Below are positions 7,150 to 58,785 of a DNA stretch of 64,000 nucleotides, piece by piece; position 1 is the first letter of the stretch, and every line of letters begins with the position of its first letter. This DNA comes from the human T2T-CHM13v2.0 reference genome, Homo sapiens: assembly GCF_009914755.1 (NCBI RefSeq), contig NC_060928.1; one strand, 5' to 3'. The position numbers were made by a program, and so were the translations under genes. The notes under the pieces are model-generated. The model ran no database searches, had not been told where the DNA came from, and saw only the letters and a list, made by a program, of their open reading frames with translations.

Positions 7150-7168
7150 CTTAAAAATAAACAGATAC

Positions 7169-12131: not shown

Positions 12132-14564
<2,433 letters not shown>

Positions 14565-21805: not shown

Positions 21806-21953
21806 GGAGGGGGGAGGAATAGCATTAGGAGACATACCTAATGTAAATGACGAGTTAATGGGTGCAGCACACCAACAGGGCACATGTATACATATGTAAC
21901 AAACCTGCACGTTGTGCACATGTACCCTAGAACTTAAAGTATAATAAAAAAAA
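21806..21953 (+). mobile_element. L1PA 3' UTR stub
   Basis: atagcattaggagacatacctaatgtaaatgacgagttaatgggtgcagc...agaacttaaagtataataaaaaaaa. Confidence 0.9.
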
Positions 21954-37366: not shown

Positions 37367-38438
37367 GTAGTTTTTCATTTAAATAAAATTAATTTGATTT
37401 TATCTAGTGCTTTGGGGTCTGTGTGTTTTTGTAACATAAGTATTTTTTATTCTTAACAGAAAGTTGACCTGACTAAAGAAGGAAAGCAGTACCTAAACCA
37501 GCTTGCAAAATTAAACCATAAGTTCTATTTATGGGATCAAGTCTGAGGACAAATAATGTATTTTAAAATCTATTATGTGGGTTTTCAAACTTATAGTACA
37601 CAAAGAATCACCTGGAGATAGTGTTAAAATGCAGGTCTGGTGTATCACCAAGATTCTGAGTCAGCAAGTTTGGCAAGAGGGATTCACAATTTGAGTTTTA
37701 ACAGGCACCAGTTGATGCTGATTCTGATGGTCTCATGTGGCACCCTCAGAGGAACAATAGAGTAAGTTTTACAACTTATTTGAACTTTACAAATGATTTT
37801 CTGATATTCATTTCTACGTAAGTTGAATTATCTAATCAGCTGCAAACAGCTGATAATTATCCACTGCAGATAATTATTTAATTATTTATAGAAGAAAGTA
37901 AAAGAACTATATAAATGATGATTTATAGAAAAATCATTTGAAATAATGAGTTTAATTTTATTATGTGAGTTGTTATTCATTAGAGAACTTGTAAATTTGT
38001 GATAAAAGAAATATTCCTATATTTCTTCATAACAGTGTGAACAAAATAAACAGAGGAAAACACACAGGTGGTCTCTATTAGTTTATAGTAGCTTTTGAGC
38101 TACTATAAACATATTCATATAAAAAACAAATGCAAAGTTTCACTTTTTAGTTTTTACTCCCTTATCTATGGTGATGAATTTTCCCTGCCTTTCACATACA
38201 AATGAAATACGAATCAAAGTGAACTGATATTTAAACACAGGACATTAACTATAGAAATACCTACTGTTAACTCACTTTAAAGATGTTATGAACTAAAAAT
38301 AGCAGCTTAATGTATCATTTACCTATAATTTTGTCTCCATTCTGTTTAATCATAATTGTGGCTAAGTGTATTTTTATACTCAATCTTGAATTATAAAATT
38401 AAGATAGAAACTATTCTCTCACTTTCTTTTTCTTCAAG

Positions 38439-41400
38439 AGAGCTGATACATCCAAAGAGGTAAGACACTTTCATTCACTGGAAAACTGGATAATAAAACA
38501 TGTATTGAACTTTTAATAGTTTCTTAATTTTTCAAAGAAATGTCATGGGTAAAGAAGAAAATTCTATGTAAGTATTTTCCTGATGATGTTGTGGAGTCTA
38601 AACATGTTTTATTCTCCTGGAAGAATCAATACTTACTTCTGAAATATGTGCATATTATGTATGGCTAATGTTGCACATTGATTGCATTTATTTACAGTAC
38701 ACTGACAAAAGTCTCAAATGTCTTGTAGAATTTAGATGGAAATTCGTAATACCAGTCTGAGGAAGATAATTATTCTCTGAGAACTTAGGTTAACATTGCC
38801 TGGTGAATAATTCCATTGGCCTAAAAAATGGTTCAATTTCAATTCTATTAAGTATAATATATAACCTACCATGCATAGATGCTGGCAATCACATACCTAA
38901 TAGAGTAAGTTCCCACCTTCTCATTTTTGGATGGTGATAAAGTCATTAAACTGGCTATCATATGTAAGATAGAAAATTTTATTTATTTTAACATATTTCT
39001 TAATGGGTGTATGCTTGATGTCTCATATTATTTTGAACTGTCATATCAATGTGATAGGATTTTTAAAATTATCCTTACTAATACAATAAATATATTGTTA
39101 AATATGGCACTGTATTAGTCAGGGTTCTCCACAGGGACAGAACTATAGGATATGTGTATATATGAAAGGGAGTTTATTAGGGAGAATTGACTCACACAAT
39201 CACAAGGTGAAGTCCTATGATATGCCATCTGCAAGCTGAGGGGCAAGGAAGCCAGCAGTGGCTCTGTCTCAGTGGCTTCAAAAGCCACAAAAGTAGGGAA
39301 GCTGATGGTGCAGCCTTCAGTCTGTGACCAAAGGCCCAAGAGCCCCTGGCAAACCACTGGAGTAAGTCCAACAGTCCAAAGGCTGAAGAACCTGGAGTCC
39401 GATATTCAAGGACAGGAAGCATTCAACATGGGAGAAAGATGAAAGCTGGAAGACTCAGCCATCCAGATTAGTTCACCTTCTTCCCCCTGCTTTTGCTAGC
39501 TAAGAGGCAACCAACTGGATGGTGCCCATTCACACTGAGGGTGGGTCTTCCTCTCCCAGTCCACTGACCCAAATGTTAATCTCCTCTGGCAAAATCCTCA
39601 CAGATGCACCCAGAAACAGTACTTTGCATCCTTCAATTCATTCAAGTTGACACTTAATATTAACCATCACAAGCACCCAATACAAAGATGCACAAAGAAG
39701 GAAGGTAGCTACTCGTGTTAACAGAAGAGAGTATTAAAGAATGTAGGAGTAGTGGCATGGAGAATCTCCACCTCCCCATAATACCCAAGGGTGGACAAAG
39801 TAGTAGCTAAAGGTATTATTTTTAAGAAGACTTCAGCCCAGTTTGGACTGATTGCCTGTAATCAGTGTTCCCACATGTATAATAAAACCACAAACTCTAA
39901 CAAACAGTGAAAATGTAAATGCTTTATCTTTTTTTTTAATCTTCTTTTAACCATTTGTGTTTTAGAAAAGGGACAATATCACTAATAGTTCAAGTGATTA
40001 TGTACATTATATAGAAGATACTAACAACTTTAACAATCTAAGCTTTTAAGAACAACAATTGTGAAACCTTTGCATGGTCATTGTCTGAATTCCCTGCAAT
40101 TTTCTATCTTCTTTTGTGTGTATCCAGGGGAGGTATCACTAATATAATACATATTTATAGTATCAGCTGTATCCAGCATACCCAACGTATTATCCTTATT
40201 CCTATCCATATGCTTACAATGCATCTTAGTAAACACAGGACATAATTACAAAGGTAAGCTAAGTCTAGTGACATGTTTTTACGATCCAGAAATATCAATG
40301 CTGACAGTTAAAAGAGGAAAAACAAGCACAAAGCATAAAACCAACAGCAGTTCCAGTCTAAAAATTGTAGTCTTCTGAAACCCCTTGAGATGTATTCATT
40401 TATTTAAGTGCTTCTGAGATAAAGCCTCTGTCCCACTATGGTTAAAAAAGTCTGGGCTCTGTGGAGAAGAGACCCTATCTTGGCCCTGACAACTACTGTT
40501 GTTAACTGTTGTTGTTTTTAAACCTCAGTTTTATCATCAACAAAATATGTATTAATATAATACTTAAGAACTTTAGAGAATTGGTGACGCTTCTGAAAGA
40601 TATGTGACATAAAATCTCTTGATCAGAAAAATGTATAGTTTTGATTGCAGGGTTTTCTGCCACTAAATCTGTCCCTGGATGTGGTTTAAATTTTGTGCCC
40701 CAAAATGTAATCTTTGGAAAAGCTGCATAAGCACCATCTGTAACACGTGAGAAATTTACATGTTATGGCCTAAGTAACTCTAATAAGCAATTGCCACGGG
40801 AACTAACGTAATACTAACAAGGGAATATAAAAATATTATCAATTTCCATTTTAGAAAGTGAGTTTTATCTTTCTGTGTACAAAATTAGTTGTTCCGAATT
40901 CTATGAGAGATTAAATATTTCACTACAAAATAAAGCAAACTTTTGGAGATAAAAGAGGACTGTTCTGAAATTCAACGTTGAAACGGTTCATAAGATTGCA
41001 ATTATTTTTCAGAGCATTTGGGAGATTGTATTCCAATAGGATTCCCTGTATCCATTAATGATATGGGAAGGAGACTGAACTTGATCCCCTAGGCATTAGA
41101 TAATAGCTAATGACATTTAATCGAGAAAGGATATATTACAAAATTATTTTGGGAAGTTAAATATGAATGCAATACTTAAGCTGTATGTAAGTCAGAGAAT
41201 AAAAGATGATGACGGAAAAACAAAAGAAATTTACATTAGAATTGCAGACAGTGGATAATAACTTTTGTTTATTCAGATACTCATTTAATGAGTATTTAAT
41301 TGTCTCCTGTGTGTCAAATGCTATTTTGGGTGCTGCATTATATTAACTAAAATTATCTATAAATATCTACTCTGCACCAGGCCAGAACCTACATGTATTT

Positions 41401-41660
41401 ACAGGAAGAAACATTTTACAGGCAATCTGTTATTTTCTTTTTCTGTACATATTTCAGTGGCAAATCCAGTTTCTACATGTGTATTTTCATCCCTGATGCC
41501 ACATCACGCTACCACCAGTTCTTGCAAAATTGACAGAAAGGCAATGTGAAATAAAACAAAGGCCATAATACTTGCCTTCTTAGTTGACCTTTGATTAGAT
41601 AGTTCTAATATCAAACTGCTAAACTGGTTTTACTGCTGTTCCGAGTAATAAAAAACTATT
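38439..41660 (+). pseudogene. Histatin/statherin/histatherin-like SCPP pseudogene: exon relics at 38439-38459, 38538-38567, 40128-40253 and ~41457-41660
   Basis: aag|RADTSKE|gtaag; aag|KCHG*RRKFY|gtaagt; cag|GRYH*YNTYL*YQLYPAYPTYYPYSYPYAYNAS*|gtaagc. The last exon resembles STATH exon 6 and has an AATAAA near 41646. Introns align with STATH introns. Confidence 0.88.
39111..39671. mobile_element. MLT2-type (ERVL) solo LTR inside the pseudogene intron
   Basis: tgtattagtcagggttctcc...gagaattgactcacacaatcacaaggtgaagtcc...ttcaagttgacacttaatattaaccatcaca; near-TSD ggcac/agcac. Confidence 0.85.
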
Positions 41661-44079
41661 CTTTTCATAAAAGTAATGGATATCAGCACATTTTTATGTA
41701 TGTGCTCTTTATTTCTATTTTTGTGTATTTCAGACATAAAACATTTCTTTCGTCACTTTGTTTTTCAAGTTTCAGTAGAACTGACCGAAGCACCTTGTAT
41801 CAGAGGTCCTGCGAAGTCACATATTTCTCATTTGGTCTGTCATCTTATATCTAACCAACATATGGACTTCAAGCGCAGCTAGATTATTGCACGTATTTAC
41901 TCTAACATTTGATTTGCTCCTGGATTCCTTTGTCACAGCACATATGCTAAGCCTCCAAAGTCCTCACTTTTCTTATCTCAGTCCCTGCAGACCAGAAGAT
42001 AACCCCCATGTCACTCCATAGCTTTAGGCAAGAATTCAGAACACAACAATGTTCTCCATGAGTTTGTCAGCAATTACTTTCCTTCATTTATACATTGAGT
42101 GACACTCGATGGCCTGACAAGGCCCTCTTTAGATACTGCACATGCAGCAAGGTCTAAGAGAGATGAAAGTTGGCCTTCAGGCAGTTTACACTGTAGTTGG
42201 GAGATAGAAACAACAAGTGAAAAAATAATACATAGTATCTCAAGTAATCATAAGTGTGCTAAAGATGAAGAAGGCAGGACTAAGGCAAAGAGGCAATTTA
42301 AAATAGGATGGTCAAGAAAAGCTTCTCTGGCACAGTGGCATTTTAGAAAACATATGAAGTGCTTATGTTCATAAGTTAGCATGAAAAAAAAAATCCAGCA
42401 GAAGAAATAGCAGGGCTGCATTCTACTGTGGTAGAAATACATTTATTGCGTTTGGGAAAACTCTAATGAAAACAGCATGAATAGAGAAGGAAAGATGTGG
42501 ATTAAAATAAACTATATTACAGAAAAGAGGTGAGGAGATGATTGAAGCGCCATAGGTCAAAGATAGCCTTTGGATTGAGATAAATGCCATTGGATCAGGC
42601 ATTGATCTGATTTATATTTTGGAAGGGAGGCAAGGGTTGAAGCATAGATCCCTTACTTTGGCATTACAGAACCCTGCTGGCCCTTAATAGTTTTACATCC
42701 TTTTGTTCTACCTGTTCATTCTTTTTTTCCATATTCTCCTAACCTACAACTTAATATTTATGATTTAGTACATACTTTCAATAACTCAAACAACTCCAGT
42801 GAAGTCTGAATTTGATTAATTATATTTGCTAAAATCTCAATCCTACTAATTGTTAAATCTTCTTACACTGCATCTCTACCAAGAAAACGCAAATGTACAA
42901 AGAAAAGAATTTATTTTATGTTTTATAAATGTGGCATACAATGTTGCTAAGCAAATAATATTCTTGTATTTAGTTTTATAGCTCTCACCCTTTCCCTTCA
43001 ATAAAATGTCCAAATGTATCATTAAGTTTTCTGAAATATCCAACTCATCTTACCTTGTAGTCAGTTCCAGAAAACAATCTACTCTGAATTAAAAACTGAG
43101 CCCATTTGATCTAACCCATTTAAGCTCTCTACTTTCACTTGTTTATAAATTAATCTATACTTGACCAGATTTGTAACTCTCTGCAACATCTTGATCATTG
43201 ACATGATTCTAATGTTTTTCCAGAGATATATTCCTGTTGTTCCTGGTTTTGTATTTCCTCCTTTATACTTGGAGAATTTTAAAAATTAAGATGTTCTTTT
43301 TCATGAAGATTATGATGATGAAAATTATAATAATGATAGAATCTAATATTTGCATTTGAGTCATTTTAATTTACAATGTGATTTTTATATACTCTCCTTT
43401 AAGTTTCACGTATTACTGTAACATTTTATAAATAAGAAAATTTTAGTTTAAAGACATAAAGCAAACTAAGCAACCTATAAGGTCACTGCAACATGGTAAT
43501 TAACATTTCCTTCCTGATGTTTCATCCTCTTGGCTTCCACAACATACAAACAGCCGAGAAATACCTCTTCTGCTATTCTTTTCCATCACAGATTTTTTTC
43601 ATAGACTTTCTATTTTCTCTTACACATTACATCAGTGCTCAGCAGGATATCTGTCCTCAGCCTATTCTCTTCTGACTCTACACATCTTGATTGTATAAGC
43701 TGTAATAATCTCATAGTTTGATTACAATCAATAAGATGATAAGTGCCCAATCTGCAACTCCATTGTTGACCTTCTTCTCCCAATTTTAGACTCATGTTTT
43801 CCTGGGTTTCTCTGTCTTAGCCTTTATCCTTGTCTGATTCACAAATTATACTGTAAACTCCTTAAGAACAAGAGTAAAGCTTCTCATGTCATGTCTCCAG
43901 AATAAACAACATTCTATCTATCTAGTAGATTATCATATGTTGTTCAGCATTTGTCAATCATATATGTCATTTTAGTAATTCAAACAGGAACATAATATAA
44001 CATTTTTAGTTAAATAAATAAATATCATGGATATTGGTCATAAATGGTTTCATGTTTCCATCATAAGAGAATTGCAGAA

Positions 44080-44190
44080 TAAGGAGAAGGAGGAGCAGCA
44101 ACTGGAGCAGCAGGAAGACAAGGAGGATGAAGAGGAAGAGGAGAAGGAGACGGCAGTAAAGAAGATAGAGAAGCAAGATTGAGGAGAGCC
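44080..44190. repeat. GA-rich low-complexity tract
   Basis: (GGA/GAA/GCA)-type triplet-like run. Confidence 0.8.
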
Positions 44191-44907
44191 CAGCATAAAC
44201 ATCACTACAAATACCCATTCATGGGTTGTATCCTTAAGCAAAAATTGTATTGCCTCACCTGTGATAAAGCAGTAGTTCTTTGTTGATGTTTCCTTTGTAA
44301 CGAAAGGTCATGACATTTTCAAAGAGAACAGTGTTTGGCATAGAGGATAAGATATCTGTTTTCTTTAATTATAAAATATGAAGTCATGTTCTGGTTCATC
44401 AGTCTTCTAAATTGGTCTGCTCTTCCTGGAGGGTGGGACCATAACTAACACGAGAAGGTCACTCCTTTGTTTCTAGTCTGCTATCCTTGTTTGACCTATC
44501 ATACATAATCCCCACACTTCCTAACTTGGGGAAGCAGAAAATGATGGGTGGACTAATGCCTACATGTTGGTATTCCAACATAACATGTAGATGAGTTAAG
44601 TTTAACTGTAATTTTAAAGTGTGTATATTAAGATGTATCAATATTTCTTACCATGTAGTTTGCTGTTTGTTAGTGCCTTTGGGCTATTAGTTTGCTTTAT
44701 GTTCACTAGAACATGAATACCTTAGATCTACTAGAACAGTACCTAGTATTGTTGGATAAATGAAGTGGTGAAGAAAACCAGAGGTAAGAAAGGAGAAGAG
44801 AGGGAGAAGAAAGAAAGAAGAAAAGAAGAAAATCATTTGACTTTCCCCAAGTAATCGAAGCAGTTTATTTTTAAAATCAGATATAGTTCAGTAGTTACTG
44901 AACCATG

Positions 44908-45208
44908 GGCCAGGCACAATGGCTCATGACTGCAATCCCAGCACTACTTGGAGGCTAAGGCAGAAGGATTTTTGTGGTCAAAAGTTCAAGACCAGCATGG
45001 GCAACATAGCAAGACCAAGTCTCCACCAAAAACAATTTAAATTAAATTAACCAAGAGTGATAACACATGTCTGTAGTCCCAGCTAAACATGAGGCTGAGG
45101 TTGTAGGACCACTTGAGCCCAGGAGTTCCAGGCATCTGTGAACTATGATCTCACCAATGCACTCAAGACTGTGCTATGCAGCAAGACCCCATCTCTGGAA
45201 AAATAAAA
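44908..45208 (+). mobile_element. AluJ with TSD
   Basis: Degenerate dimer; TSD tagttactgaacc at 44892-44904 and 45209-45221. Confidence 0.88.
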
Positions 45209-45561
45209 TAGTTACTGAACCCTATGTAACTTTTTTCCACTCAGAATGTAAAGAGATTGTGTTTGTTTTACACATGAGAAGAAACTTTGTATCTATAATG
45301 CTTATAAATCTCATGACAAAAGAATAAGAATAATATCTATCTAATTTAATTTGAATTATTTATTTGCCTTAAGAAATGATTTATATTTTCTTGTATATTA
45401 CCCAGAGAGTAATCATAATTTCCAGTAAGGCTGTTCCAATACAGCATAAAAATTTACCTAATAAATACTTCCTTAAAAAATCTGATACAAAATTAAACCA
45501 CAAATTATCTTTACTGGTTAAAGCCTAAGGATAACTAATGCATTCAAGAGACAAATATGTG

Positions 45562-45704
45562 GTTGTTTTTTTTTTTATGTTTTTGTGGAGATACGGGTCT
45601 CACTATGTTGCCTAGGCTATTCTTGAACTTCTATGCTCAAGCAATCCTCCTGCCTCGGCCTCCCAAAGTGCTGGGATTACAGACATGAGCCACTGAGACC
45701 AGCC
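45562..45704 (-). mobile_element. Alu monomer (FLAM/left-arm-like)
   Basis: ggagatacgggtctcactatgttgcctaggct...ctcccaaagtgctgggattacagacatgagccact. Confidence 0.85.
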
Positions 45705-46730
45705 TTGTTTCAAACTTCACAGTACCCAAAGAATCACCTGGAGATAATGTTAAAATGCAAACGCCTTAGGACAACCCCAAGATTCTGACTCAGCAAGTTT
45801 GCGAAGGTGGACTAAGAATTTACATTTCCACAGGCTCCAGCTGATGCTGTCTGTGATGTTCCCATATGGCACACTCTGAGGAACAATGCACTAGGCTGTA
45901 TAACTTACCTCAACTTTATATATAAGTTTTTGATATTCGTTTCTTAGTACATTGAGTTATCCAACCAGCAGTGAGTAGGGTAATTTTTACACAAATTTTC
46001 CTAGGAATGTAATGAAAACATTTTTTCCTTCACTCTAGTGTAATCATGTCAACACATGGCTGCTATGGAAAAATATGTAGCCTTAAAAACTCCAGGAAAT
46101 TAAATTGAATTTCCAAATACATATATTCAGTCATATGTGAGATATGTATCAGTGAGCACTTAGAGTCATTTCACCATAAATATAATAATTTTTTATCATA
46201 TAGTACCCAAAAGATTACTGAATTTGGCAAATGTTTACGTTCACTTTGTAACTTAAAATATTCTAAAGTCAATAGAAGATGGTAAAAGTATGAGATAAAT
46301 AATGATTTGAAGAAAAACTCTTGAAGTATATGAAGACTGTAATTTTATTATGCCAGTTACCACGAGTTATCAGAGAACATGTAAAATCTTGATAACATGG
46401 TAAGTATTATTTGTGTCATAGAGTTGTTCCACCTTGGACACATACTTGTGGAAACATCTTTATCACTGCAATTATTTCTATGCCTGGTTTCCTCCAGCAT
46501 GCTTTTCTGTCATCTGACTCACTCAGCGCTAGACTAACAGTGGGATTAACATGCAGTGGGTACAGTTGTTTCCTGGTTACTTTGTCTTCACAATCATCTA
46601 TTGCAAAATCACTTTGTTACGGTTATTTTTATCATTTGTAGAGACAGATTTTGGGCATTACTTTTAGTTTCCATAATGTGATCTCATAATTGCCATTATT
46701 TAACAAAAACAAATGGGGGACTTCAGAGTG

Positions 46731-46738
46731 TTTAAATA
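46731..46738 (+). promoter_or_regulatory. STATH TATA-like box TTTAAATA
   Basis: About 25-30 nt upstream of exon 1. Confidence 0.65.
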
Positions 46739-46759
46739 CATTGGCCCTCTAGGGTAGCA

Positions 46760-46820
46760 CATCATCTCTTGAAGCTTCACTTCAACTTCACTACTTCTGT
46801 AGTCTCATCTTGAGTAAAAG
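46760..46820 (+). other. STATH: STATH exon 1 (non-coding)
   Basis: ...cttcacttcaacttcactacttctgtagtctcatcttgagtaaaag|gtaata; TSS approximate. Confidence 0.8.
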
Positions 46821-47721
46821 GTAATATGTTCATGTATAATCGAATATGTTGTCTTAATCTAGAGTGTTGCTTCCTAAAATCTTTTGAAAACTAATTATAA
46901 AAATGTGTATTTATGTAATGATAATTTCTCATAAAGAAACAATTGAGAGAAATGATGACCTTCTTAGGATCTGAAGGTAAGTTGAGAATCTGAATAACTA
47001 TACATTGAAATCAGCAATCATCATGCAAAGTAAATAATGTGGAATATGGAGGCATATTCCAACTTCTCTCCTGATGGAACTTCTGAAAAGCTTTTTATTT
47101 CCTTGTCTACGTACTGGCATCTACTCTGCTACTTACTACTTTTACCTTTATTCGAAGTTCATATTTTAAGAAAATAGCATACGTTCTCTTTTTTGCAAAT
47201 GTATATATTGTTTCACAAGTTTAACTTTTAAAAATTTACTTTTTTCCCATAAGTAAACATTTCTCACTACCTTTTCATTGACCTTTCCATCATTTTAAAC
47301 AGTTATGTCATTCTGCATAATAAAAAATGTTGTATAACAGTCATGCTTTACTGCCTTACTGTTTTATATTACTTAAGTTGTTTTCATTCAGTTGTGATAT
47401 GGCAGAAAACAAAGATTTTACTATTTCATATTTTTATTATTTTTCATTGGGGAAATATTTTTTTAAAACCATGACATATATATTTATATATCTATGTCTA
47501 TATATCCATCTTTCAGTTTATCAAGGTTAGTAAAACAAAACTACTCTTCTATGAGCATTTTTTGATTCCATACTTTCAATAAAATTTACAGGTATAAAAT
47601 ACACTAAAGTTTTTATGCTTTTTGCATCATAAAATGACTGATGGGTAGGTTTATCTATCAGGTGATAGAAAAACCCCAAAGTACATATTATTTTTACACT
47701 TACTCTAATACCAGAAATTTC

Positions 47722-48040
<319 letters not shown>

Positions 48041-49232
48041 AGAAATTTCAGTTTGAATAACTGAGGCAAATCAGTGAATAAGTAACAAAGCAAATGCCAT
48101 AAATCATGAGTTCTGCTTTATGTTTTGGAGATTTGGGGTTATTAATAACAGTAATTTTTTTTATAATTAGGTAAAAAATATTCTTGTAATGTTTTATCAC
48201 AAGTTATTGGTAAAAGAGATTAAAATAATGAAGACCATTACCTTTATATGAATTACTCTATAGTTTTCAATAAACAGGTAAAAATGTCATTTATTTGTAA
48301 CTCTTGTGGCAATTATGTGTTTCACTGAAAATGTCTTTATTTAGATGTTTATAATTTACAAATAAATAATCTAACGTTTTTTGTTTAATAACAAAGGAAC
48401 TGGGTTAACTGGCTTATACTGTTTATGATAACATATCACAGTCCCAGATAAGGTTAATTTTGTTGAATGAGATTATTTAAAATATTAAGTCATCTTCACC
48501 AATTCAACTTCTCAGAGGAGGTACGAATATTTTCTCTGTGACTTCTTATCAGTTTGATTGTTCTCTACCCAGTATCATTAATGTTCTAATCTGAAGGTGA
48601 CCCCATTTTTGCAACTCTCAAGACAGAAATCTGGCTCATTTTCAGTAACATTATAAAGCGATTGCCCATTGCTGGTCATTCTAACATCCAAACATCTCTT
48701 TACACTGTACCTTAAATATCATCCCTAATGTCATTATTTAAGGCGCCCCATAATATCCAGTTCTATCTTCCCTACATTTTGAACTGTTCCAGTTTTATCT
48801 TCTGATAAACTGCTCCAGTTTTATCTTCCCTACATTTTGAACTGTTTGCACTTTCAATATGGTATCCTCCCTCTTTTTCATTTTCTTGCAGTCACCCAAC
48901 ACCTCTTTACTCATCCCGCATAATCCAACTCAAGCTTTACTTTCTTCTTTACCTTCATACCCCTATTCTCTTGGTCTGCGTAAGGTGTTGATTTGTGTGT
49001 TACTCTAATGCCTTAGCATTTCCATATCAATACACTCACTTTTACTTATCAGTGTCTCCAACAAGTCTCCAAGTTTCATGATGTCAGGCAATGGGTTTTA
49101 ATTGTCTTTCTATCTGGAGTGTGTCTCCCAGTGCTTTGGAGCGTAGTATAATCAATAAACTTTTGATGGGCGAATGCAAGAAAAAATGTGATACTGAATT
49201 TCCACATATGTTTTCAGAGAACCCAGCCAACT

Positions 49233-49283
49233 ATGAAGTTCCTTGTCTTTGCCTTCATCTTGGCTCTCATGGTTTCCATGATT
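49233..49283 (+). CDS. STATH: STATH exon 2 coding part MKFLVFAFILALMVSMI (whole exon 49218-49283)
   Basis: cag|agaacccagccaactATG...ATT|gtaagt. Confidence 0.97.
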
Positions 49284-50461
49284 GTAAGTATATCAGGACA
49301 TTTGAAGAATATGTTCTCAGTACCTATCCCAAGAGTCTCTCTATTCCTTGTGTTCTGGCATATATTGGTGTTTACTTGAATACAGCTTTATATGTTTAAA
49401 TGTTTCCATATGAACTTTTTTTTGTACTAACCTACATAAGCTATATAAGGATTTAGAATAAATAGTCATTATTCATCTACAGACACTAAAGTATATTTAG
49501 CTTAGTGTGAAATAAAAGAAAGTTTTACTGAACTTCTTAAATATGTGGAACTGAGAGCTTCTAAAAGTATCTTTAAACATGTAATGCTCTAGACAATCTG
49601 AAGTTAGAAATCTCAGGAATGAACTAGGTGCACTTGAGTGGAATTCAAGTATTAGAAGATGTCAAAGTAGAAATTTTCAAGTCATTCCTTGCAAAAACTA
49701 ACTTAAAATTAGTATACAATTATTTAGCACACACTTTCTAAAATAAAGCTGCTTATTTTTAACTATAAAACAAAACTTCAGATCTATGACATGTTATGAG
49801 TTCCCAGCTTTTATTGTCATTTACTACTATGTATCACTAGGTAAAGCACTTGACTTCTCTGGAGCTCTTTCTTCTACTCTACTTCCTTCTATTTCTCCTG
49901 TCCCTTTTCTATGACATTAGTAGGAAACTGGCCATGAAAGAATAAAAATAGTTCAACTTACCTGGTAAATTCTAACAGATATTTCAAAAACTAATTTGAT
50001 TATAAAATCACAGTATACCACATTATTTGTTATAAAAGGATAGGTGTCTAAAAAATAAAAAATAAAAATGTAAGGAAAACAGAGAAAAACATAATGCTTG
50101 TCTCTGTCAGTAAATAAAAGTTATGTGTAAGTAGCCTTTGAGCTGCTGAAAACATATTCTTATGAAAAAATACAAAGTTTCACTTTTCATTCACCAATGA
50201 TAACCATTTACTCCCTTTTACACACAAAACAAGTATAAATCCAAATAAATTTATATTTGAATATAGCACACTAATTACAGAAAAGCATACTCTTAACTCA
50301 TTTTAAAGATGTCATGAAGCAAAAATAACTAATTTAGTGTCTATCGATGATTTGCCTACATCCTGTTTACTCACAACTGTAGCTGCTGAGTTCATTTTTG
50401 TACTCAATCTGGAATTATAACATTAAGATACTAACTATTGTCTAATTTTCTGTTTTCTAAG

Positions 50462-50482
50462 GGAGCTGATTCATCTGAAGAG
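50462..50482 (+). CDS. STATH: STATH exon 3 GADSSEE
   Basis: aag|GGA GCT GAT TCA TCT GAA GAG|gtgagt. Confidence 0.97.
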
Positions 50483-50574
50483 GTGAGTCATTTTCATTCA
50501 CTGGAAAACTTGTTTTCAGTTTTGTCCTCCCTACATTTGTATTGAATTATTAAACTTTTCTTCATTTTTCACAG

Positions 50575-50604
50575 AAATTTTTGCGTAGAATTGGAAGATT
50601 CGGT
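50575..50604 (+). CDS. STATH: STATH exon 4 KFLRRIGRFG
   Basis: cag|AAA TTT...GGT|gtaagt. Confidence 0.97.
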
Positions 50605-51657
50605 GTAAGTGTTCTCTGATAATGCTGTGTAGTCCAAATAAATTGTGTTCTCTGATTACTTATTCTTCTAGAAGAACCAATACTTATTTCTCAAATATGT
50701 GTAGTAGTTGCAAAAGTGTGCTTTGTTTTCCTCTATTTATGATACACAGGTAACAGTCACAAATGTATTGTGTCCTAACAACATTTAAGTTGAAACTCAT
50801 AGTGCCAACCTGAAGAAACCAGTTACTCCCTGAGCCCTCAAGTATCATCTCCTAAGTAATCACTTTGACCTAAAAAATAGTTGAAATTCTAATTCTGTTA
50901 ATTATAATATATGCCTCATGGAGCATAAAGGCTGATAATTACACATAAAATATGGTAAGTTTGCACCTTCTGATTTTTTTTGACGGTGATAAACTCATTA
51001 AATTAAACAGGTCATGATAAATGAGATAGCAAATTTCATTTATTTAACATTTTTCTTAATGTATGTATCTTGATGTCCCAGTATGTTGACATATAATGTC
51101 AATGTGATAGGGTTGCAAAAGATCCCCTAACTAATATAGTGAATACATGGATTAAAATAACACCAAATAAAAAGATACTCTAAAAGGGATGATGGTTATT
51201 TGTGTTAACAGAAGGAAGAAGTATTAAGGAATGTAGGAATCGTAAGAGACAGTAAGCTCATTAAAAGAGTGACTTGAAGAAACACCACATAAGCTGAATT
51301 TAGTAAATGTCTCCTTCCCATAATACTCAAAGGTGGGCAAAATGGTTGCTGGGAGGTAGTATTTTGAAGAAAATTTAAAACCTCTTTGGAGTGATAGCCT
51401 ATAATCGGTGTTCCTGCATGTGAAATAAAACCACAAAACTGTGAACATGCAGTACAAAGGTAAACACTCAATCATTTTTACCTGCTTTTAAAATGTGTTT
51501 ATAACCAAAAAGAAAAATCTAATTGAAAGTTTGGAAAAAAATCTTATAAGTAATATGTAAGTTCCTAAAACTTTAACAATCTAAGCTTCTAATAAAAACG
51601 CTTGCACTGTCATTATCTCAATTTTCTGCAATTTTCTTTCTCCTTGTGTGTATACAG

Positions 51658-51744
51658 TATGGGTATGGCCCTTATCAGCCAGTTCCAGAACAACCACTAT
51701 ACCCACAACCATACCAACCACAATACCAACAATATACCTTTTAA
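51658..51744 (+). CDS. STATH: STATH exon 5 coding part YGYGPYQPVPEQPLYPQPYQPQYQQYTF* (exon ends at 51777)
   Basis: cag|TAT GGG...TTT TAA...gag|gtaaga; total 62 aa, the statherin precursor. Confidence 0.98.
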   Translation, partial: YGYGPYQPVPEQPLYPQPYQPQYQQYTF

Positions 51745-52985
51745 TATCATCAGTAACTGCAGGACATGATTATTGAGGTAAGATGGGTTTAGTGACATTT
51801 TTTTTACTTTCTGTATCAGTGCTGACAGTTAAAAGAAGAAAAACAAAAACAAGACATTAAACCAACAGCAGTTCCAGTATAAGAAAGCAGCCAGCTGTAT
51901 AGCTCCTTGAAATGTATTAATTTATATAAATGCTTCTGAGATAAAGTCTCTGTCCTGCTATGGTTAGAAGGCAGTGTTATAGAGTGGGGGACACCAGGGT
52001 TTGTATGCTGGCCCTGACAACTACTAGTTTCATGACTTTGAACTACTCCTAATGCTCCTGAACCTCAGTTTTCTCGTCAAAAAATTGTGTATTATGATAA
52101 CACTTAAATGTGCTTTTTAGAATTGGTGACACTTTTGAAAGACATATCACATAAAATCTCTTGATCAGAAAGGTTTGTAGTTATAACTGCAGGGCTTCCC
52201 TGCCACTAAATCTGTACCTAGGTGTTGCTTAAAGTTTTCACTCCCAAAATGCAATCTTTGGAGAAGCTTCCATCTGGGAACCATCTGGGAACTTGTGAGA
52301 AATTTGCATTTTGTACCCTAAGTAACTCTACTGAGCAATTACTATAGAAATTATTAACATAATGCTAACAAGAAAATATGGAAATGTTATCAATTTCTTT
52401 TTAGAAAGTCAGTTTTACCTATCTCTACACAACATTAAATGTTCTAAATTCTATGAAAAAATAATATTTCAAAACAAAATAGAGCAAACTCTTGGAGATA
52501 AGGGAGGATTGTTCTACAAAGTTAAAATAGTCCAAAGGATTTCAATTATTTTTCAGTGCATTTGGGAGATTATATTCCAATTCAATTCTCTATTGCCATT
52601 AGTGATACAGGGAAGAGCCTGAACTTGATCCCCTAGGTTTTAGGTAATAGCTGATGACATTTAATCAAGAAAAGATGTATTGAAATATTATTTAGAGGAA
52701 ATGCATATAAATGAAATGTGTAGGCTATATTTAAGTAGAAGAATAAAATAGTATGATGATTGAAAAATAATTTAAATTGTAGATGCTGAATGATAATTTT
52801 TATTTATTCAGGAACCAATTTAATAATTGTTTAATTGTCTACTCTGTGTCAAATATTATTTTGGGCCCTGCATTTTATAAACTATAATTGTATATAATAT
52901 CTACTCTGTACCAGGCCAGAATATAAATGTGTTTACAGGGGTAAAAATTTTACAGATAATCTGTTATTTTTTTTTTTCTGTGCAG

Positions 52986-53250
52986 GCTTGATTGGCAAAT
53001 ACGACTTCTACATCCATATTCTCATCTTTCATACCATATCACACTACTACCACTTTTTGAAGAATCATCAAAGAGCAATGCAAATGAAAAACACTATAAT
53101 TTACTGTATACTCTTTGTTTCAGGATACTTGCCTTTTCAATTGTCACTTGATGATATAATTGCAATTTAAACTGTTAAGCTGTGTTCAGTACTGTTTCTG
53201 AATAATAGAAATCACTTCTCTAAAAGCAATAAATTTCAAGCACATTTTTA
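52986..53250 (+). other. STATH: STATH exon 6 (3' UTR) with AATAAA at 53228-53233
   Basis: Long polypyrimidine tract, tgcag|gcttgattggc; polyA signal; end approximate. Confidence 0.85.
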
Positions 53251-56200
53251 CATGTATGCTCCTTATTTTTCTCTTTTCTATTTATAGGAATAATGATTTC
53301 TTTCATCATCTTCTTTCCCAGTTTGACTAGCACAGATTGAAGCCCATAATGTCAGAGGTCCTTATTTATAATTTAGTCTGTCATATTTTATATGTTACAA
53401 ACATGGTACTCAAACTCACTTATTATTAGAGCTATTTATGCCAAGATTTGATTTGCCCATGGTTTCCTTTGCCACACCACAGTTGCTAAGCCTCCAAAGC
53501 ACTCACATTTTTTATCTCAGTCCCTGTAGGTCAGAAGATAACCACCATGTCACTCTACAGCAGTATGTAGGCACTCTGCATGTAAACCATCTAATGCCCT
53601 CCATTAGTTTTTCAGCAATGACTTTTATTCAAGAAATATTTATTGAATGACCCCAGCTGTCAGGTCCTCTTCTAGATGCTGCAGACAAAGAGAGACAAAA
53701 GTCCTGTCTTTGGAGAGTTTACATTGTAGTTGGGAGATGCAGATACAAAGTAAATAAATAGTACATATCTTAGGCAATGATAAGTGTGCTAAAGAAGTAT
53801 AAGCATGTCTAGGGCACAGAAACAAATTTAAACAGGATAGTCAACAAGAGACTCTCTGACATAGTGACATTTTATGAAAGATATGAACTAAGCATGAGAG
53901 CGAATATGGAGAAATAAATTTTCCAGCAGAAAATAGCAAATGCAAATTTATTGTGATAGAAACATGTTTGTTTCATTAGGGACAAATTCAAGGAGACCAA
54001 TATGGACAGAGAAGGCAAGTGGATCAAAATAAATTACGTCACAGCATAAGGGATACGCAGGTAACTAAAGCTTTGTGGCCCATGTTAAGTCTTTGATTTG
54101 AGATGGATGACATTGGAGAAAGACATAATCTTATTTATATTTTGGAATGGAATCAAGGGTTGAATCATAGATATCCACACTTGGGCCTTACAGAAATCTG
54201 TGGGTCCTTCCTATTTTTATGTCCTTTTATTCTATGTGTTCCTTTTAAAATTTATTTTATTTTCCTCTAAGCCAGTACTTCATATTTTTCATTCACTATA
54301 TACTTGCAATAACTCAAACAATTCCAGTGAACTTCTGGGTTTGGGTAACTCTACTTGCTAATATCTCAATCCTATAAATCCCTAAATTTTATATCATGTT
54401 TCTTTATCAAAACCTAGATATATAGAAAAAATGTGATTTTTTTGTTTTCTAAATTTGGAGTACAACATTGCTCACCAAGTTTTTTCCACGTATTTGATGC
54501 AATACCTCTCTCATTAACCTACAATAAATTGCCCCAATATTTGTTTTCTGAAGGAACCAACTCATCTCACTCAGTAGTCAATTTCAAAATAATAATATTG
54601 ATAATAATAATAACAACAACATACGTATTTGAAAGGAAAATTGAATTCATTAGGCATAAGTGTCTTAAACTTCTTACTCTCACTTTTAATAAATTAATCT
54701 ATATCTGATCAGATTTCTAATTCTCAAAGTCTTAAAGGTGAAGATGACTGTCATGTTTTCCAAAGATATTTTTTCATTATTCTTTGTTTTGCATTTTCTC
54801 CTTTATTCTCAGAGAAATTTTTGAAACTAAGATGTTCTTTCAAATGAATACTATCATGCTAAAAATAATAATAAAACAACCTAATATTTACCTTTAAATA
54901 ATGTATATTTTAAATTTCTCATATATATGAAATATATAAATATATAAATCATATTTCATATTATATATTAATATATGAAATATATATTTTCATTTAATTC
55001 ACTTTCAACTATTATTATAACATGGTCTGGGTAACTAAATTGTAGTTTAAAGAAACTACAGAATCCCCTATTTCACTACAAATTTTATTCATTGTGATTA
55101 ACATTTTCCCCTTGAAATTTCATCCCTTTTGTTTCCATTATGTACGTATATTTCTTGAAAATACTATACTATTCTTTTCCCTCTCAGAGATTTTCATGGG
55201 CTTTCTTTTTCTCTCACATACTACATCAGTGTTGTCTAGGGGATCTTTTCTCAACTTTCTTTTTTTCTGGTTGTACACTTCTTTCTTGTGTGACTTCTTT
55301 TCATAATTCATTTTCATAATTGATTAAAATCAATAAGCTGATAAGTCCAAAGTCTGCAGTTCATGTGTGGGAAGAAGAGTTCCTTCTTCTCTTAATTTAG
55401 ACTTATATAACAAACACTCCTCCAGACTGATGTGCAGTTGCCTTTAACCTTGTATGTTTTATAAATTGAACTGTAACCTCCTTAGAAGCAGAAAAGAGCA
55501 TTTACTTTGTATCACCAGTGTCTAGAATGTTTCATGTTATATAGAATACAGTCCAATGTTGTTTCACATTTGTCATTTGAGGTATTTGTCCTCTTAGTAT
55601 GGAAACTGGAATATAAGATATTTTTATTTAAATAAACATCATAGATTTTTTCATAAACATTTCATACTTTCATCATAGTAGAAATAGAAAAGAAGACACA
55701 AGAAGAATAGGAGGAAAGCCCAGCATAAATATGACTGGAAATACCTATTCATGGGTTGCATCCTTAAGACATCAATTTAATGACATGCTTGTGATAAAGC
55801 CTTCACTATTTTTTCACATTTCCCTTATAAATGAAAGGCATTGCATTTTCAAAGAGCATAGTGTTTTGTTATAAAGAATTAGATACCTGGTTTATTTAAT
55901 TATAAAATGTGAAGATGAAGACATGTCTGATCCATCACTCTTCCTACTGTTCCTGGAGGGAAGGTCACTCCTGTGTATCTAGTCCATTATGTTTGTTCAA
56001 ACTGTCATACACAATTCCCACACTCCCTAACTTGGGGAAACAGGAAACGATGTGTGAAATAATGCCTATATTTTGGTGTTCCAACATAAAATATAGATGA
56101 CTTAAGTTTGATTGTAGTTGTAAAATGTTATATTAAAATATATATCAGTATTTTTACCGGGTAGCTTGTTGTTTGTCAGTGCCTTTGGACTATTAGTTTG

Positions 56201-56639
56201 CTTTATGTTCACTAGAACATGAATATTATAGAAGTACTAAAACAGTGCCTTACATTGTTGTTTAAATGGTTAGTGAAGAAATAAAGAGTGAAAAAAGTAG
56301 AGAAAGACAGGAAGGAAAGAAGAAAGGGGAGAAATCATTTGACAACTCAAGCATATCCAAAGCAGTGTTTACCCTTCAAAGTCAGACATATTTCAAGTTA
56401 CTGAACTATGTATCTCTTTCCCATTAAAAAGTGATGAGAGTTTGTATTATTTTGAGCACAAGAAGAGACCTTGTATCTCCAGTGCTTAGAATAAATCTAT
56501 TTTAAATTGAGTTATTTATTTGCCTTAAGAAATAATTTATGTTTTTGTATTTATCCAGAGAATAACCATTATTTCCAATAGGACTGTTCAATTATAACAT
56601 AGAAGCTTTACCTTATAAATATTTTCCTAATAAATCTGA

Positions 56640-58785
56640 CACATTAAGCCACAAGTTCTATTTGTGGGATGAAGTCTAAGGACAAATAATGCATTTGTGA
56701 GTTAATTATGTGTTTTTTCAAACTTTACAGTACAGAAAGTATCACCTAGAGATACTGTTAAAATGCAAGTTTCTGGTGTACCCCCAAGATTCTGATTCAG
56801 CAAGTTTGGAAAGTGAGACTAAGAATTTTCATTATAATAGGCTCCAGCTGATGCTGATTCTCATGGTTCCATGTGGCACACACAGAAACAATGGATTAGG
56901 CTTTATAATTTATCTTCAATTTACAAATGAGTTTTTAATATTGAGTTCTAAGTGTTTGAATTATCCAACCAGTCACAAGTTGGTTAGTTTTTGAAGAAAT
57001 TTATCTAGGAACTTAGTGAAAGTTCTTTTCTTTTTTCCTCCTTTCTGTCTAGTGCAATCATGGCAATACATGGCTTCCATGGAGAAATATGAGCCTTTAA
57101 AAACTCCAGGGAAGTAAATTGAATTTCCAAACATAAGTATCCAGTTATTATGTATGATGTATATTATTATACTAAACACCTAGAACTATTTGACTTTAAC
57201 TATAAGAATTATTTTATTACATACTAGTAATCAAGAGATTACAGAATTTTGGCAAATATTTACATCTACTTTATGACTTAAAATATTTTAAAGTCAATGG
57301 AAGAAATTAAAAGTACAATATTAATCATAATTTTTAGAAAAACTTATAAAAATATATAATGACTCCAATTATGTCAGTTATCACTATTTCTTAGAAAATA
57401 GATTAAATTTTGGAAGGATTTTAATATCATTTTTGTCAGAGTTGTTTCATCTTGGACATATATTTGTTGAAATAAAATAGAATGTTGTCCACGCAAACAT
57501 ATTACATATGTAATCATTTCTATGCTTGGTTACTGTAGCATGATTTTTTCCCTCATTTTATTCTCACATGTCTAAACTAATTAACATGTGATGGATCCAT
57601 TTGTTTCCTGGTTACTTTGTCATCACAATCTTTATTGTAAAATCATCCAGTCGAGTTCATTCTCACTATTTTGTAGGAATTTCTTTTTGGCATTTGTTGC
57701 TCAGCAACCACAGGGCATGTTTATAGAGGTAAGATGAGTCTAGTGATGTTTGTTTACTTTTCAAAAATATCAATGCTGACACTTAAAAAGAAAAAACACA
57801 GAAACAAGCCATAAAACAGTTCTAGCTTTAGAAATGTAGCCTGGGATAGCTCCTTGAAATGTATTCATTTATATAAATGCTTCTGAGGGAAATCTTCTGT
57901 CCTGTTATGATTAAAAGGCTGGGCTCTGGGGAGGGGAACCCCTGTGTTTGTATCCTGCTCCTGACAACTACTATTTTCATGATCTTGAAGTATTACTAAT
58001 CCTTTCCAAAGTTCAATTTCCTCATCAACACAATAGGTATTATGATAATACTTGTACTCTTTGTAGTACTAGTAAGACTATTGAAGGACATATTACATAA
58101 AAGCCCTTGATCAGAAAGGTGCATAATCGTGACTGCAGGCTTCACTGCCACTAAAGCTATCTCTGGACGTTGTTTAAGTTTCCCTCCTAAAATGCAATCT
58201 TTGGACAAGCTACACAAGCACTATCTGGGATCTTGTAAGAAATGTAGAGTCTAAACCACATCTAAACCAAATGAATCAGAATCTGCGTTTTAATAATATC
58301 CCTATGTGATGTATAACGTAATAACTTTCAGAATTTTTGTCTTAATTCTAGTAAGTAGTTAGGATAAAAACCACTAATATAATGTCAAAAAACAGAGAGG
58401 AAAATGTTATCAATTTCCTTTTTAGAAAGTCAATGCAATTTTACCTATTTATATGCAACACAAAATGTTTTAAATTTCTAGGAAAAAATGGTATTTCTAG
58501 AAAAATTAGTTTTTCACTATAAAACAAAGTAAACTTTAAAAAATATGAACACTGTCCTGTGATTTACTTTTGAAATCATCCATAGGATTTCAATTATTTT
58601 TCAATGCAGTTGTAGGTTTTATTCCAATCGAATTCTCTGTTGCCAATAATGATATGGGAAAGAGCCTGAACTTGATACTCTAGGCATTAGGTAATAGCTG
58701 ATGATATTTGATCAAGAAAGGATATATTTAAAATATTATTTTGGAACAACAAATGTGAATGAAATATGTAGGCTATATTTAAGGA
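56640..58785 (+). pseudogene. Third, heavily deleted STATH-like unit: upstream region fused to the exon 5 3' end and intron 5
   Basis: 56640-57690 resembles 45490-46660; 57701-57734 tcagcaaccacagggcatgtttatagag|gtaaga resembles STATH 51750-51783; similarity to STATH intron 5 continues to ~58785. Confidence 0.8.

What the first reader, a model, noticed from the sequence alone, without database searches (positions are those of the whole stretch)
37505..58785. STATH is the sole survivor of an ancient head-to-tail triplication
The same anchor (aaattaaacca...agtctaaggacaaataatg, then a MER5A-like relic caaagaatcacctggagata..gttaaaatgc...aagattctga.tcagcaagtttg) recurs at ~37505, ~45490 and ~56640. 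The intron-5 block occurs three times (40254-41200, 51778-52740, 57729-58785), and 41760-45480 parallels 53300-56630, including shared L2 relics. Copies are visibly diverged with many indels, so the event is old. This is a birth-and-death record of salivary SCPP genes.
Basis: seen in the sequence. Interest (0 to 1): 0.75.

Follow-up and report, generated by a model that had tools for sequence, protein, structure and literature searches.

The report
Dead statherin/histatin gene copies flanking STATH
Human STATH is flanked by two decayed tandem copies of its own gene unit that belong to the same old array as the histatin genes, and their leftover exons suggest the family's founder combined a histatin-like middle with a statherin-like tail.

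Summary
Self-alignment shows three head-to-tail collinear units: A 37506-45488, B 45488-56640 (STATH) and C1 56640-58822 (truncated). K2P distances are 0.22-0.36. The diagonals survive repeat masking, and the intron-5 block occurs nowhere else in the genome.

Downstream sequence of the same chromosome shows the array continues with a 3' fragment (C2), the HTN3 unit, another relic (E) and the HTN1 unit. STATH is therefore not the sole survivor. In trees STATH and HTN3/HTN1 group together, and relics A, C1 and E fall outside them.

A, C2 and E share one full-length Alu at the same site with the same target duplication, while STATH keeps the empty site. The relics are therefore a true lineage, and their split is of primate age, not deep-mammalian.

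A is an unprocessed pseudogene. Exons 1-2 are deleted. Exon 3-5 relics remain, with in-frame stops in the exon 4 and 5 relics. Its exon-3 relic is exon 2 of the predicted lncRNA LOC105377269.

The exon-4 relics of A and E are histatin-type (5-6 of 30 differences from HTN, against 14-17 of 30 for STATH). Their exon-5 relics are Tyr/Pro-rich like statherin's. This implies a histatherin-like founder, with statherin's exon 4 as the derived state.

The parts
37506..45488 (+). Unit A: unprocessed (intron-bearing) pseudogene relic of a STATH/HTN-type unit, 7983 bp, the leftmost unit of the array
   Evidence: Collinear HSPs to unit B. No unit-type homology upstream of 37506.
37506..37840 (+). The same anchor opens units B, C1, HTN3 and HTN1.
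   Evidence: Five-way alignment. K2P A-C1 0.217, A-B 0.295, B-C1 0.270.
37629..37761 (+). Exon 1 of the predicted lncRNA LOC105377269, inside the anchor, with donor GTAAGT
   Evidence: Hub annotation; splice site read.
38005..38048 (+). Deletion junction in A. The equivalent of B 46395-50077 (about 3.7 kb, holding STATH exons 1 and 2, i.e. promoter-proximal exon and signal peptide) is missing.
   Evidence: HSPs 37888-38005~46272-46395 and 38048-39110~50077-51163.
38439..38459 (+). Exon-3 relic of A, 21 nt, AG and GT intact, reads RADTSKE. It is also exon 2 of LOC105377269.
   Evidence: Alignments; translation; splice sites.
38538..38567 (+). Exon-4 relic of A, 30 nt, AG and GT intact, reads KCHG*RRKFY with an in-frame TAA. 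It is histatin-type.
   Evidence: It differs at 5-6 of 30 nt from HTN1/HTN3 and at 14 of 30 from STATH.
39111..39673 (+). About 560 bp present only in A (B and HTN3 are contiguous here); nature unknown
   Evidence: HSP boundaries.
40128..40253 (+). Exon-5 relic of A. It has in-frame stops (GRYH*...) and then a Tyr/Pro-rich reading like statherin's tail; donor GT intact.
40254..41406 (+). Intron-5 block of A
   Evidence: The genome-wide search finds it only in the array.
41451..41826 (+). Exon-6 (3' UTR) relic of A; acceptor AG lost (reads cat)
44068..44230 (+). Exon 3 of LOC105377269; equivalent to B 55680-55760; acceptor AG present; no AATAAA or ATTAAA found in 44068-44300
44893..45226 (+). 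Full-length Alu (body 44908-45209, plus orientation, A-rich tail) with target-site duplications at 44893-44907 and 45210-45226. Shared at the identical site by relics C2 and E, absent from STATH.
   Evidence: Alignment; coordinates. Rfam Metazoa_SRP match at 44909-45025, E 9.5e-4, 21.7 bits, below the gathering score of 70. About 300-bp matches to other Alus.
45488..56640 (+). Unit B: the STATH unit, 11153 bp
   Evidence: Hub annotation; HSPs.
45568..45705 (+). Partial Alu-like insertion specific to unit B; absent from A, C1, HTN3 and HTN1
47725..48040 (+). Alu specific to the STATH unit; HTN3 and HTN1 are contiguous across this point
50575..50604 (+). STATH exon 4 (KFLRRIGRFG), the outlier of the family
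   Evidence: It differs at 14-17 of 30 nt from every other unit, against 24-30% in the flanking introns. Fisher p = 1.3e-4 against HTN3 and 0.02 against A.
56396..56410 (+). Empty target site of the relic-specific Alu: a single copy of AGTTACTGAACTATG
56640..58822 (+). Unit C1: a truncated relic made of the anchor and upstream region (56640-57694) joined directly to the intron-5 block
57694..57728 (+). Deletion junction in C1 (B 46659-51750 missing, i.e. exons 1-4 and the coding part of exon 5), then a relic of the last ~29 nt of exon 5 with donor GT
57729..58822 (+). Intron-5 block of C1. Unit homology stops at 58822, and L1-like sequence follows from about 60.8 kb.

Best explanation
The region 37506-58822 is the left end of a tandem array of STATH/HTN-type gene units built by repeated unequal crossing-over.

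Order along the chromosome: A (dead), STATH, C1 (dead fragment), about 13 kb of L1-rich DNA, C2 (3' fragment), HTN3, E (dead), HTN1.

Shown here:
- The units are collinear paralogues.
- STATH and HTN3/HTN1 are each other's closest relatives, and the relics branch outside them.
- A and E/C2 share a derived Alu insertion that STATH lacks.
- HTN3 and HTN1 arose by a much later segmental duplication that carried the 3' part of relic E/C2 with it.

Inferred history:
1. A first duplication gave a 'relic-type' unit and a 'gene-type' unit.
2. An Alu then landed in the relic-type unit.
3. The pair (or more) was duplicated again in early primates.
4. The relic-type copies died independently. A lost exons 1-2 by a 3.7-kb deletion and gained stop codons. 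C1 lost exons 1-5. E lost its 5' end and the exon-4 donor.

The relics have no protein function today. A's anchor and exon-3 relic are reused as exons of a predicted lncRNA.

Because the relics are outgroups to the STATH/HTN split, they show the direction of change. The founder gene most likely had a histatin-type basic exon 4 and a statherin-type Tyr/Pro-rich exon 5. Statherin rewrote exon 4, and the histatins shortened and rewrote exon 5.
For: Collinearity and controls.

Extent of the array:
- Alignment against 80 kb of downstream sequence (L005-L012) finds C2, the HTN3 unit, E and the HTN1 unit.
- The stretch 71980-87730 matches 97231-110116 at 85-92% in its listed HSPs.

Distances, K2P:
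- HTN3-HTN1: 0.07-0.11.
- C2-E: 0.11 in three blocks, 0.20 in the gappy block P6.
- Deep pairs: mostly 0.27-0.37.

Trees:
- Block P3 gives {B,D,F}|{A,E} with UFBoot 100.
- Block P1 gives {B,D,F}|{A,C1} with 91.
- Rooted on the CSN1S2-like region: ((B,(D,F))84,C1) and ((A,(C2,E))51,B).

Shared Alu: same site and same target-site duplication in A, C2 and E, with a single-copy empty site in B.

Exon relics:
- Exon 3: A reads RADTSKE and E reads RADVSEE.
- Exon 4: A reads KCHG*RRKFY and E reads KYHECKRKFL, against HTN3 RHHGYKRKFH, HTN1 RHHGYRRKFH and STATH KFLRRIGRFG.
- Exon-4 differences: A or E against HTN, 5-6 of 30. STATH against all others, 14-17 of 30.
- Exon 5: the A and E relics are long and Tyr/Pro-rich, while the HTN genes carry deletions.

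Conversion check: identity between HTN3 and STATH dips only in the windows that hold exon 4 (0.68-0.70) and exon 5 (0.59-0.64). No long conversion tract is visible.

No disabling lesion is shared by A and E.
Against: - The intron-5 block (P4) gives a conflicting grouping, {A,B} with UFBoot 85. Block P5 supports the main split only at 58. The outgroup-rooted A+(C2,E) clade has only 51.
- Internal branches are short (about 0.05, against 0.15-0.2 for terminal branches), so the deep splits were close in time and their order is only partly resolved.
- A constant-rate reading conflicts with the Alu bound. The deep K of about 0.29 is three times the HTN3-HTN1 K of about 0.09, which would place the deep splits before primates. 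Either rates were faster earlier, or HTN3 and HTN1 were homogenised.
- C1 and C2 overlap by about 200 bp at 82.7% identity, so whether they are one broken unit or two units is unresolved.
- The exons are tiny (21, 30 and about 126 nt). A short, exon-limited gene conversion cannot be excluded.
- No formal ancestral-state computation was made.
- No non-human genome could be examined.
Confidence: 0.8

Rival explanations
1. One reading: one ancient head-to-tail triplication of a STATH unit, of which STATH alone survives.
For: Inside the window there are exactly three units, and only STATH is a gene (hub annotation).
Against: - The array continues outside the window with C2, HTN3, E and HTN1.
- HTN3 and HTN1 are closer to STATH than A, C1 or E are.
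- The STATH-HTN distance (0.26-0.32) is about the same as the A-STATH distance (0.27-0.36).
Confidence: 0.05
2. The off-diagonals are chance, or clusters of interspersed repeats (MER5A, L2, Alu) in similar order, and not a duplication.
For:
- Several Alus lie in the units.
Against: - 13 of 13 HSPs remain collinear after masking everything that hits outside the array.
- One HSP runs 5373 columns.
- There were 0 hits to each of 5 shuffles.
- The genome-wide search finds the intron-5 block only in this array, 11 of 11 matches.
- Small exons with their splice sites align in register.
Confidence: 0.01
3. The split between relic-type and gene-type units is much older, predating the split of primates from cattle, and unit A is the dead human orthologue of bovine histatherin (HSTN). 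HSTN also lies between CSN2 and STATH.
For: - Cow gene order is CSN2, HSTN, STATH, CSN1S2, by coordinates in the supplement of PMC12457735. A holds the same position in human.
- The relics have the mixed histatin/statherin make-up that the name histatherin denotes (the meaning of the name is recalled).
- No Alu is shared between A and B.
Against: - K for A-B (0.27-0.36) is only about 1.2 times K for A-C2/E (0.28-0.38). The A-C2/E split is itself bounded to primates by the shared Alu.
- PMC12457735 (passages) prefers an artiodactyl-specific duplication for HSTN.
- No bovine sequence could be compared here.
Confidence: 0.2
4. The histatin-type exon 4 in relics A and E comes from gene conversion with the HTN genes, so it says nothing about the founder.
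For: - E lies next to HTN1, and tandem paralogues do convert.
- The intron-5 block shows a discordant tree.
Against: - A lies about 45 kb from HTN3, next to STATH, and still has the histatin type.
- A and E differ from HTN at 5-6 of 30 sites and from each other at 7 of 30. That is a neutral-level, old divergence and not a recent copy.
- The flanking introns show no raised A-HTN or E-HTN identity beyond the exon windows.
Confidence: 0.1

Closest known systems
STATH / HTN3 / HTN1 gene family (salivary P/Q-rich SCPP genes, 4q13)
   Same: - Same unit: anchor, 21-nt exon 3, 30-nt exon 4, exon 5, intron-5 block and 3' UTR exon, collinear throughout.
- Same array and same orientation.
   Different: - A, C1 and E lack exons 1-2 (C1 lacks exons 1-5).
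- They carry stop codons or lost splice sites.
- They are not annotated as family members in the hub table.
- They branch outside the STATH+HTN pair.
Bovine histatherin (HSTN)
   Same: - Position between CSN2 and STATH.
- Mixed histatin-like and statherin-like character, which for HSTN is recalled and not checked against sequence.
   Different: - HSTN is an expressed gene in cow (PMC4219721, passages), whereas the human units are dead.
- Orthology is untested.
- The Alu bound and the K ratios argue that most of the human duplications happened within primates.
CSN1S2AP / CSN1S2BP, the duplicated casein pseudogenes of the same cluster
   Same: - Unprocessed pseudogenes left by tandem duplication in the SCPP cluster.
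- STATH exon 2 and pieces of the unit still align weakly to them: 119879-119996 and 138819-142657 at 60-68%.
   Different: - They are a different and much more diverged subfamily.
- They are annotated and transcribed, while the STATH/HTN relics are unannotated apart from one lncRNA model.

Membership tests
STATH/HTN gene-unit family | Collinear homology of introns and flanks with STATH, HTN3 and HTN1 | tested here: met
   K2P of 0.24-0.41 to all other units in every shared block; 0.49-0.51 for A in the poorly aligned block P1.
STATH/HTN gene-unit family | Micro-exons of 21 nt (exon 3) and 30 nt (exon 4) in register, with AG/GT | tested here: met
   A has both exons with AG and GT. E has both exons but has lost the exon-4 donor. 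C1 has neither exon.
STATH/HTN gene-unit family | Exon 1 and the signal-peptide exon 2 present, with an open reading frame (needed for a working gene) | tested here: not met
   The equivalents of B 46395-50077 (in A) and B 46659-51750 (in C1) are deleted, and E starts at B 49952. There are stops in A's exon 4 and exon 5 relics. These are relics, not genes.
Unprocessed (duplicated) pseudogene, as opposed to a retrocopy | Introns and flanks retained, tandem position, no poly-A-tailed intronless copy | tested here: met
   Intron homology runs over several kb. All copies lie in the one array.
Orthologue of bovine HSTN | Syntenic position between CSN2 and STATH | tested here: met
   Cow coordinates in the supplement of PMC12457735 compared with the window layout.
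Orthologue of bovine HSTN | Unit A groups with cow HSTN, and human STATH with cow STATH, in a tree | not testable with these tools
   No non-human mammalian genome or HSTN sequence is on hand.
Alu (dimeric 7SL-derived primate SINE) for 44908-45209 | About 300 bp, two 7SL-like arms with an A-rich linker, an A-rich tail and flanking target-site duplication | tested here: met
   Sequence and target-site duplication. About 300-bp matches to other Alus. A weak Metazoa_SRP match at E 9.5e-4, below the gathering score. The subfamily was not determined.
   No repeat library is available. The genome search with 37590-37700 found only the three window copies.

The most novel reading that the evidence does not exclude
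The unannotated relics are fossils of a lost third kind of primate salivary gene, histatherin-like: an acidic Ser-x-Glu start, a basic histatin-type exon 4 and a Tyr/Pro tail. Rooting the family on them reverses the textbook direction 'histatins evolved from statherin'. On this reading the basic histatin segment is the old state. Statherin's exon 4, part of its enamel-binding N-terminal region, is a primate novelty made by replacing about half of its 30 bases. Intact relic-type genes may still exist in strepsirrhines, tarsiers or New World monkeys. Unit A may be the dead orthologue of bovine HSTN.
Probability: 0.5. Interest if true: 0.6.

Novelty: new member of a known kind. Interest (0 to 1): 0.45.

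Why it matters
The latest study of this locus (PMC12457735, sections and passages read) says the coding sequences are too short to resolve how STATH and the histatins arose. It repeats that the histatins derive from statherin.

The relics add several kilobases of neutral paralogous sequence per unit, a discrete marker (the shared Alu) and two outgroups. Together these make three things directly testable: the order of duplications, their age, and the direction of the extreme coding divergence between statherin and the histatins.

The relics also explain one lncRNA model, LOC105377269, as transcription through a dead gene that reuses its exon 3. Beyond this family the finding is ordinary, because decayed tandem duplicates are common.

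Tried and rejected
- **Dating by K alone.** The deep K of about 0.29 against 0.09 for HTN3-HTN1 would give 90 My or more at a constant rate. I rejected this as a date once the shared Alu bounded the A-E split to primates.
- **Simple alternating model.** I considered three copies of a two-unit module (relic + gene). It fits A-STATH and E-HTN1, but C1 and C2 overlap by about 200 bp, so C1 may be an extra unit. This is left open.
- **Compensated frameshift in STATH exon 4.** I checked this by eye on the alignment. It gains only about 3 matches for 2 gaps, so it is not supported.
- **Repeat identity of the anchor.** The genome search found only the window copies, which says nothing either way.
- **Papers not held.** Sabatini et al. 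1993 and Kawasaki et al. 2011 are not in the library. What I say of them is recalled, or taken from citations in PMC12457735.
- **Literature search for the relics.** The terms 'statherin pseudogene', 'histatin pseudogene', 'STATH pseudogene' and 'LOC105377269' had 0 occurrences each. Searches listed no paper describing the relics. Subscription papers (Sabatini 1993, Rijnkels 2003, Kawasaki 2011, de Sousa-Pereira 2013) could not be checked and may mention them.
- **Supplement of PMC12457735.** It was searched by terms only. It lists no extra statherin-like gene for marmoset or cow beyond HSTN. The appendix figures were not seen.
- **Protein-database searches.** These were not used. The relic exons are under 30 residues each, and a spliced protein would have been a joined sequence.

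Full report
**Coordinates.** All places are window places. Places above 64000 lie outside the window, in loci L005-L012, which are the next 80 kb of the same chromosome. L005 starts at 64001 and each locus holds 10 kb.

**Observation.** A self-comparison of the window, and a more sensitive one of 36-64 kb, show three head-to-tail units: A 37506-45488, B 45488-56640 (the STATH unit) and C1 56640-58822.

- A-B is collinear over almost all of A. The longest HSP is 39771-44907 against 51313-56410, with 5373 columns at 68.6%.
- A-C1 and B-C1 share the 5' anchor and the intron-5 block.
- I masked all 2176 of 21501 bases that hit anything outside the array. After that, 13 of 13 remaining plus-strand HSPs lie on the three diagonals. 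Five shuffles gave 0 hits each, and the reversed sequence gave 2.
- A genome-wide search with 40000-41400 returned 11 matches, all within the 70-kb array on chromosome 4.

The labels MER5A and L2 could not be tested.

**The array is larger than the window.** A search of the window's genome with STATH exons 3-4 found four places: STATH, unit A, HTN3, and an unannotated place between HTN3 and HTN1. Alignment against the fetched downstream sequence gives this layout:

| Unit | Extent | Content |
|---|---|---|
| A | 37506-45488 | relic |
| B | 45488-56640 | STATH |
| C1 | 56640-58822 | truncated relic |
| (spacer) | about 13 kb | L1-rich DNA |
| C2 | 71980-78089 | 3' part of a unit |
| D | 78089-87730 | HTN3 unit |
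| E | 94617-99912 | relic with exon 3-5 equivalents |
| F | 100136-110434 | HTN1 unit |

The stretch 71980-87730 matches 97231-110116 at 85-92% in its listed HSPs. The young HTN3/HTN1 duplication therefore carried the 3' part of the neighbouring relic with it.

**Anatomy of the relics.**

- *Unit A* lacks the equivalent of B 46395-50077, which holds STATH exons 1 and 2.
  - Its exon-3 relic is 38439-38459, with AG and GT intact, and reads RADTSKE.
  - Its exon-4 relic is 38538-38567, with AG and GT intact, and reads KCHG*RRKFY.
  - Its exon-5 relic is 40128-40253, with early stops and then a Tyr/Pro-rich reading.
  - Its exon-6 relic is 41451-41826 and has lost its acceptor.
- *The predicted lncRNA LOC105377269* starts in A's anchor, uses the exon-3 relic as its exon 2, and ends at 44068-44230. 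All its introns are GT-AG.
- *Unit C1* joins B-equivalent 46659 directly to 51750. It keeps only the last ~29 nt of exon 5, its donor and the intron-5 block.
- *Relic E* keeps exon 3 (RADVSEE), exon 4 (KYHECKRKFL, donor lost) and an open exon 5 (ERSNQHQPYPDYWPYPAYPPYYLYPYP*). It has no exons 1-2.
- No lesion is shared by A and E, so they seem to have died separately.

**Relationships.** K2P distances on MAFFT blocks:

| Pair | K2P |
|---|---|
| HTN3-HTN1 | 0.07-0.11 |
| C2-E | 0.11 (0.20 in one gappy block) |
| STATH-HTN | 0.26-0.32 |
| A-STATH | 0.27-0.36 (0.49 in one poorly aligned block) |
| A-E/C2 | 0.28-0.38 |

Maximum-likelihood trees:

| Block | Result | UFBoot |
|---|---|---|
| Exon 3-5 block (P3) | {STATH,HTN3,HTN1} split from {A,E} | 100 |
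| Anchor block (P1) | {STATH,HTN3,HTN1} split from {A,C1} | 91 |
| 3' UTR block (P5) | agrees weakly | 58 |
| Intron-5 block (P4) | disagrees, grouping {A,STATH} | 85 |

Weak matches of unit pieces to the CSN1S2-like region served as an outgroup. With it, C1 falls outside STATH+HTN (support 84) and A groups with C2/E (support 51).

The clearest marker is discrete. A full-length Alu with the same target-site duplication sits at the same site in A (44908-45209), C2 and E, while STATH keeps one copy of the target as an empty site at 56396-56410. The element gives a weak SRP-RNA match. The relics therefore share a derived insertion and form a lineage of their own.

**Age.** Dimeric Alus are confined to primates; this is established knowledge that I recall and did not test here. 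It follows that the A-E split, and with it probably the STATH-HTN split of similar K, happened in primates. It happened before the marmoset lineage left, because PMC12457735 reports an HTN3-like gene and STATH in marmoset (passages; supplement). A constant-rate reading of K would give a much older date, and I set it aside. The first split, between relic-type and gene-type units, predates the Alu. It has K only about 1.2 times larger, and its age is open.

**Direction of coding change.**

- *Exon 4.* The relics A and E differ from HTN3/HTN1 at 5-6 of 30 bases. That is at or below the intron level of 25-29%. STATH differs from every other unit at 14-17 of 30, against 24-30% in its introns. Fisher p is 1.3e-4 against HTN3, 1.7e-4 against HTN1, 0.02 against A and 0.03 against E.
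- *Conversion check.* Sliding windows show the STATH-HTN dip only where exons 4 and 5 lie, with no long conversion tract.
- *Exon 5.* A and E differ from each other at the neutral level (36 of 126). They share the long Tyr/Pro-rich form with STATH, while the HTN genes carry deletions.

Since the relics branch outside STATH+HTN, the simplest reading is that the histatin-type exon 4 and the statherin-type exon 5 are both old. Statherin's exon 4 and the histatins' exon 5 would then be the derived states. This is inference from shared states on the tree. No formal ancestral-state computation stands behind it.

**Literature.**

- PMC12457735 (abstract, section 9 and passages) lists STATH, HTN3 and HTN1 as the family. 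It mentions no flanking relics. It says the short coding sequences cannot resolve the deep history, and it repeats that STATH gave rise to the histatins.
- Its preprint version (passages) calls the two cow genes histatin-like.
- Four exact phrases for such pseudogenes, and the lncRNA name, had no occurrence in the library.
- The older subscription papers were not available, so prior description there cannot be excluded.

**Verdict.** The feature is real, and it is a new (unannotated) set of members of a known kind: unprocessed pseudogene relics in a tandem gene family. The added value is that the relics root the STATH/histatin family.

Noticed in passing
L008:617-5912 (extended window 94617-99912): Relic E between HTN3 and HTN1. 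Its exon 3, 4 and 5 equivalents are all open (44 codons, then a stop at the usual place), but exons 1-2 are missing and the exon-4 donor is lost.
   Followed up: yes
L005:7980-10000 and L006:1-4089 (71980-78089): C2, a 3' unit fragment that matches relic E's 3' part at about 83-92% and forms part of the HTN3/HTN1 segmental duplication. Its first ~180 bp also match the end of C1 (58621-58799) at 82.7%, so it is unclear whether C1 and C2 are one unit or two.
   Followed up: partly
L008:5755-6084 and L008:7452-7781 (99755-100084 and 101452-101781): A 330-bp direct duplication at 97.6% identity around the start of HTN1. It is much younger than anything else in the array.
   Followed up: no
L007:4159-4747 (88159-88747): A tandem-repeat tract with a period of about 40 bp, downstream of HTN3.
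   Followed up: no
L010:5879-5996 and L012:4819-8657 (119879-119996; 138819-142657): STATH exon 2 aligns at 68% to a place inside CSN1S2AP. Pieces of the unit's 3' end, promoter region and intron 1 align collinearly at 60-67% to a region beyond it. This fits the published derivation of STATH from a CSN1S2-like gene.
   Followed up: partly
window 7154-7300 and 7297-7445: A tandem duplication of about 147 bp at 94% identity, inside the CSN2 gene span.
   Followed up: no
window 7746-7952, 14330-14535, 21808-21957: Three copies of a 150-207 bp element at about 93% identity to one another, unusually similar for this window. The family is not identified.
   Followed up: no
window 12156-14348, 23199-26392, 61067-63996: Three long L1-like fragments, 68-74% alike, in mixed orientation. 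The last one lies just beyond the end of C1.
   Followed up: no
window 39111-39673: About 560 bp present in unit A only, with no match elsewhere in the 144 kb examined.
   Followed up: no
window 54882-54987: A local palindrome in the STATH unit's 3' spacer. It gave the only minus-strand self-hits left after masking.
   Followed up: no
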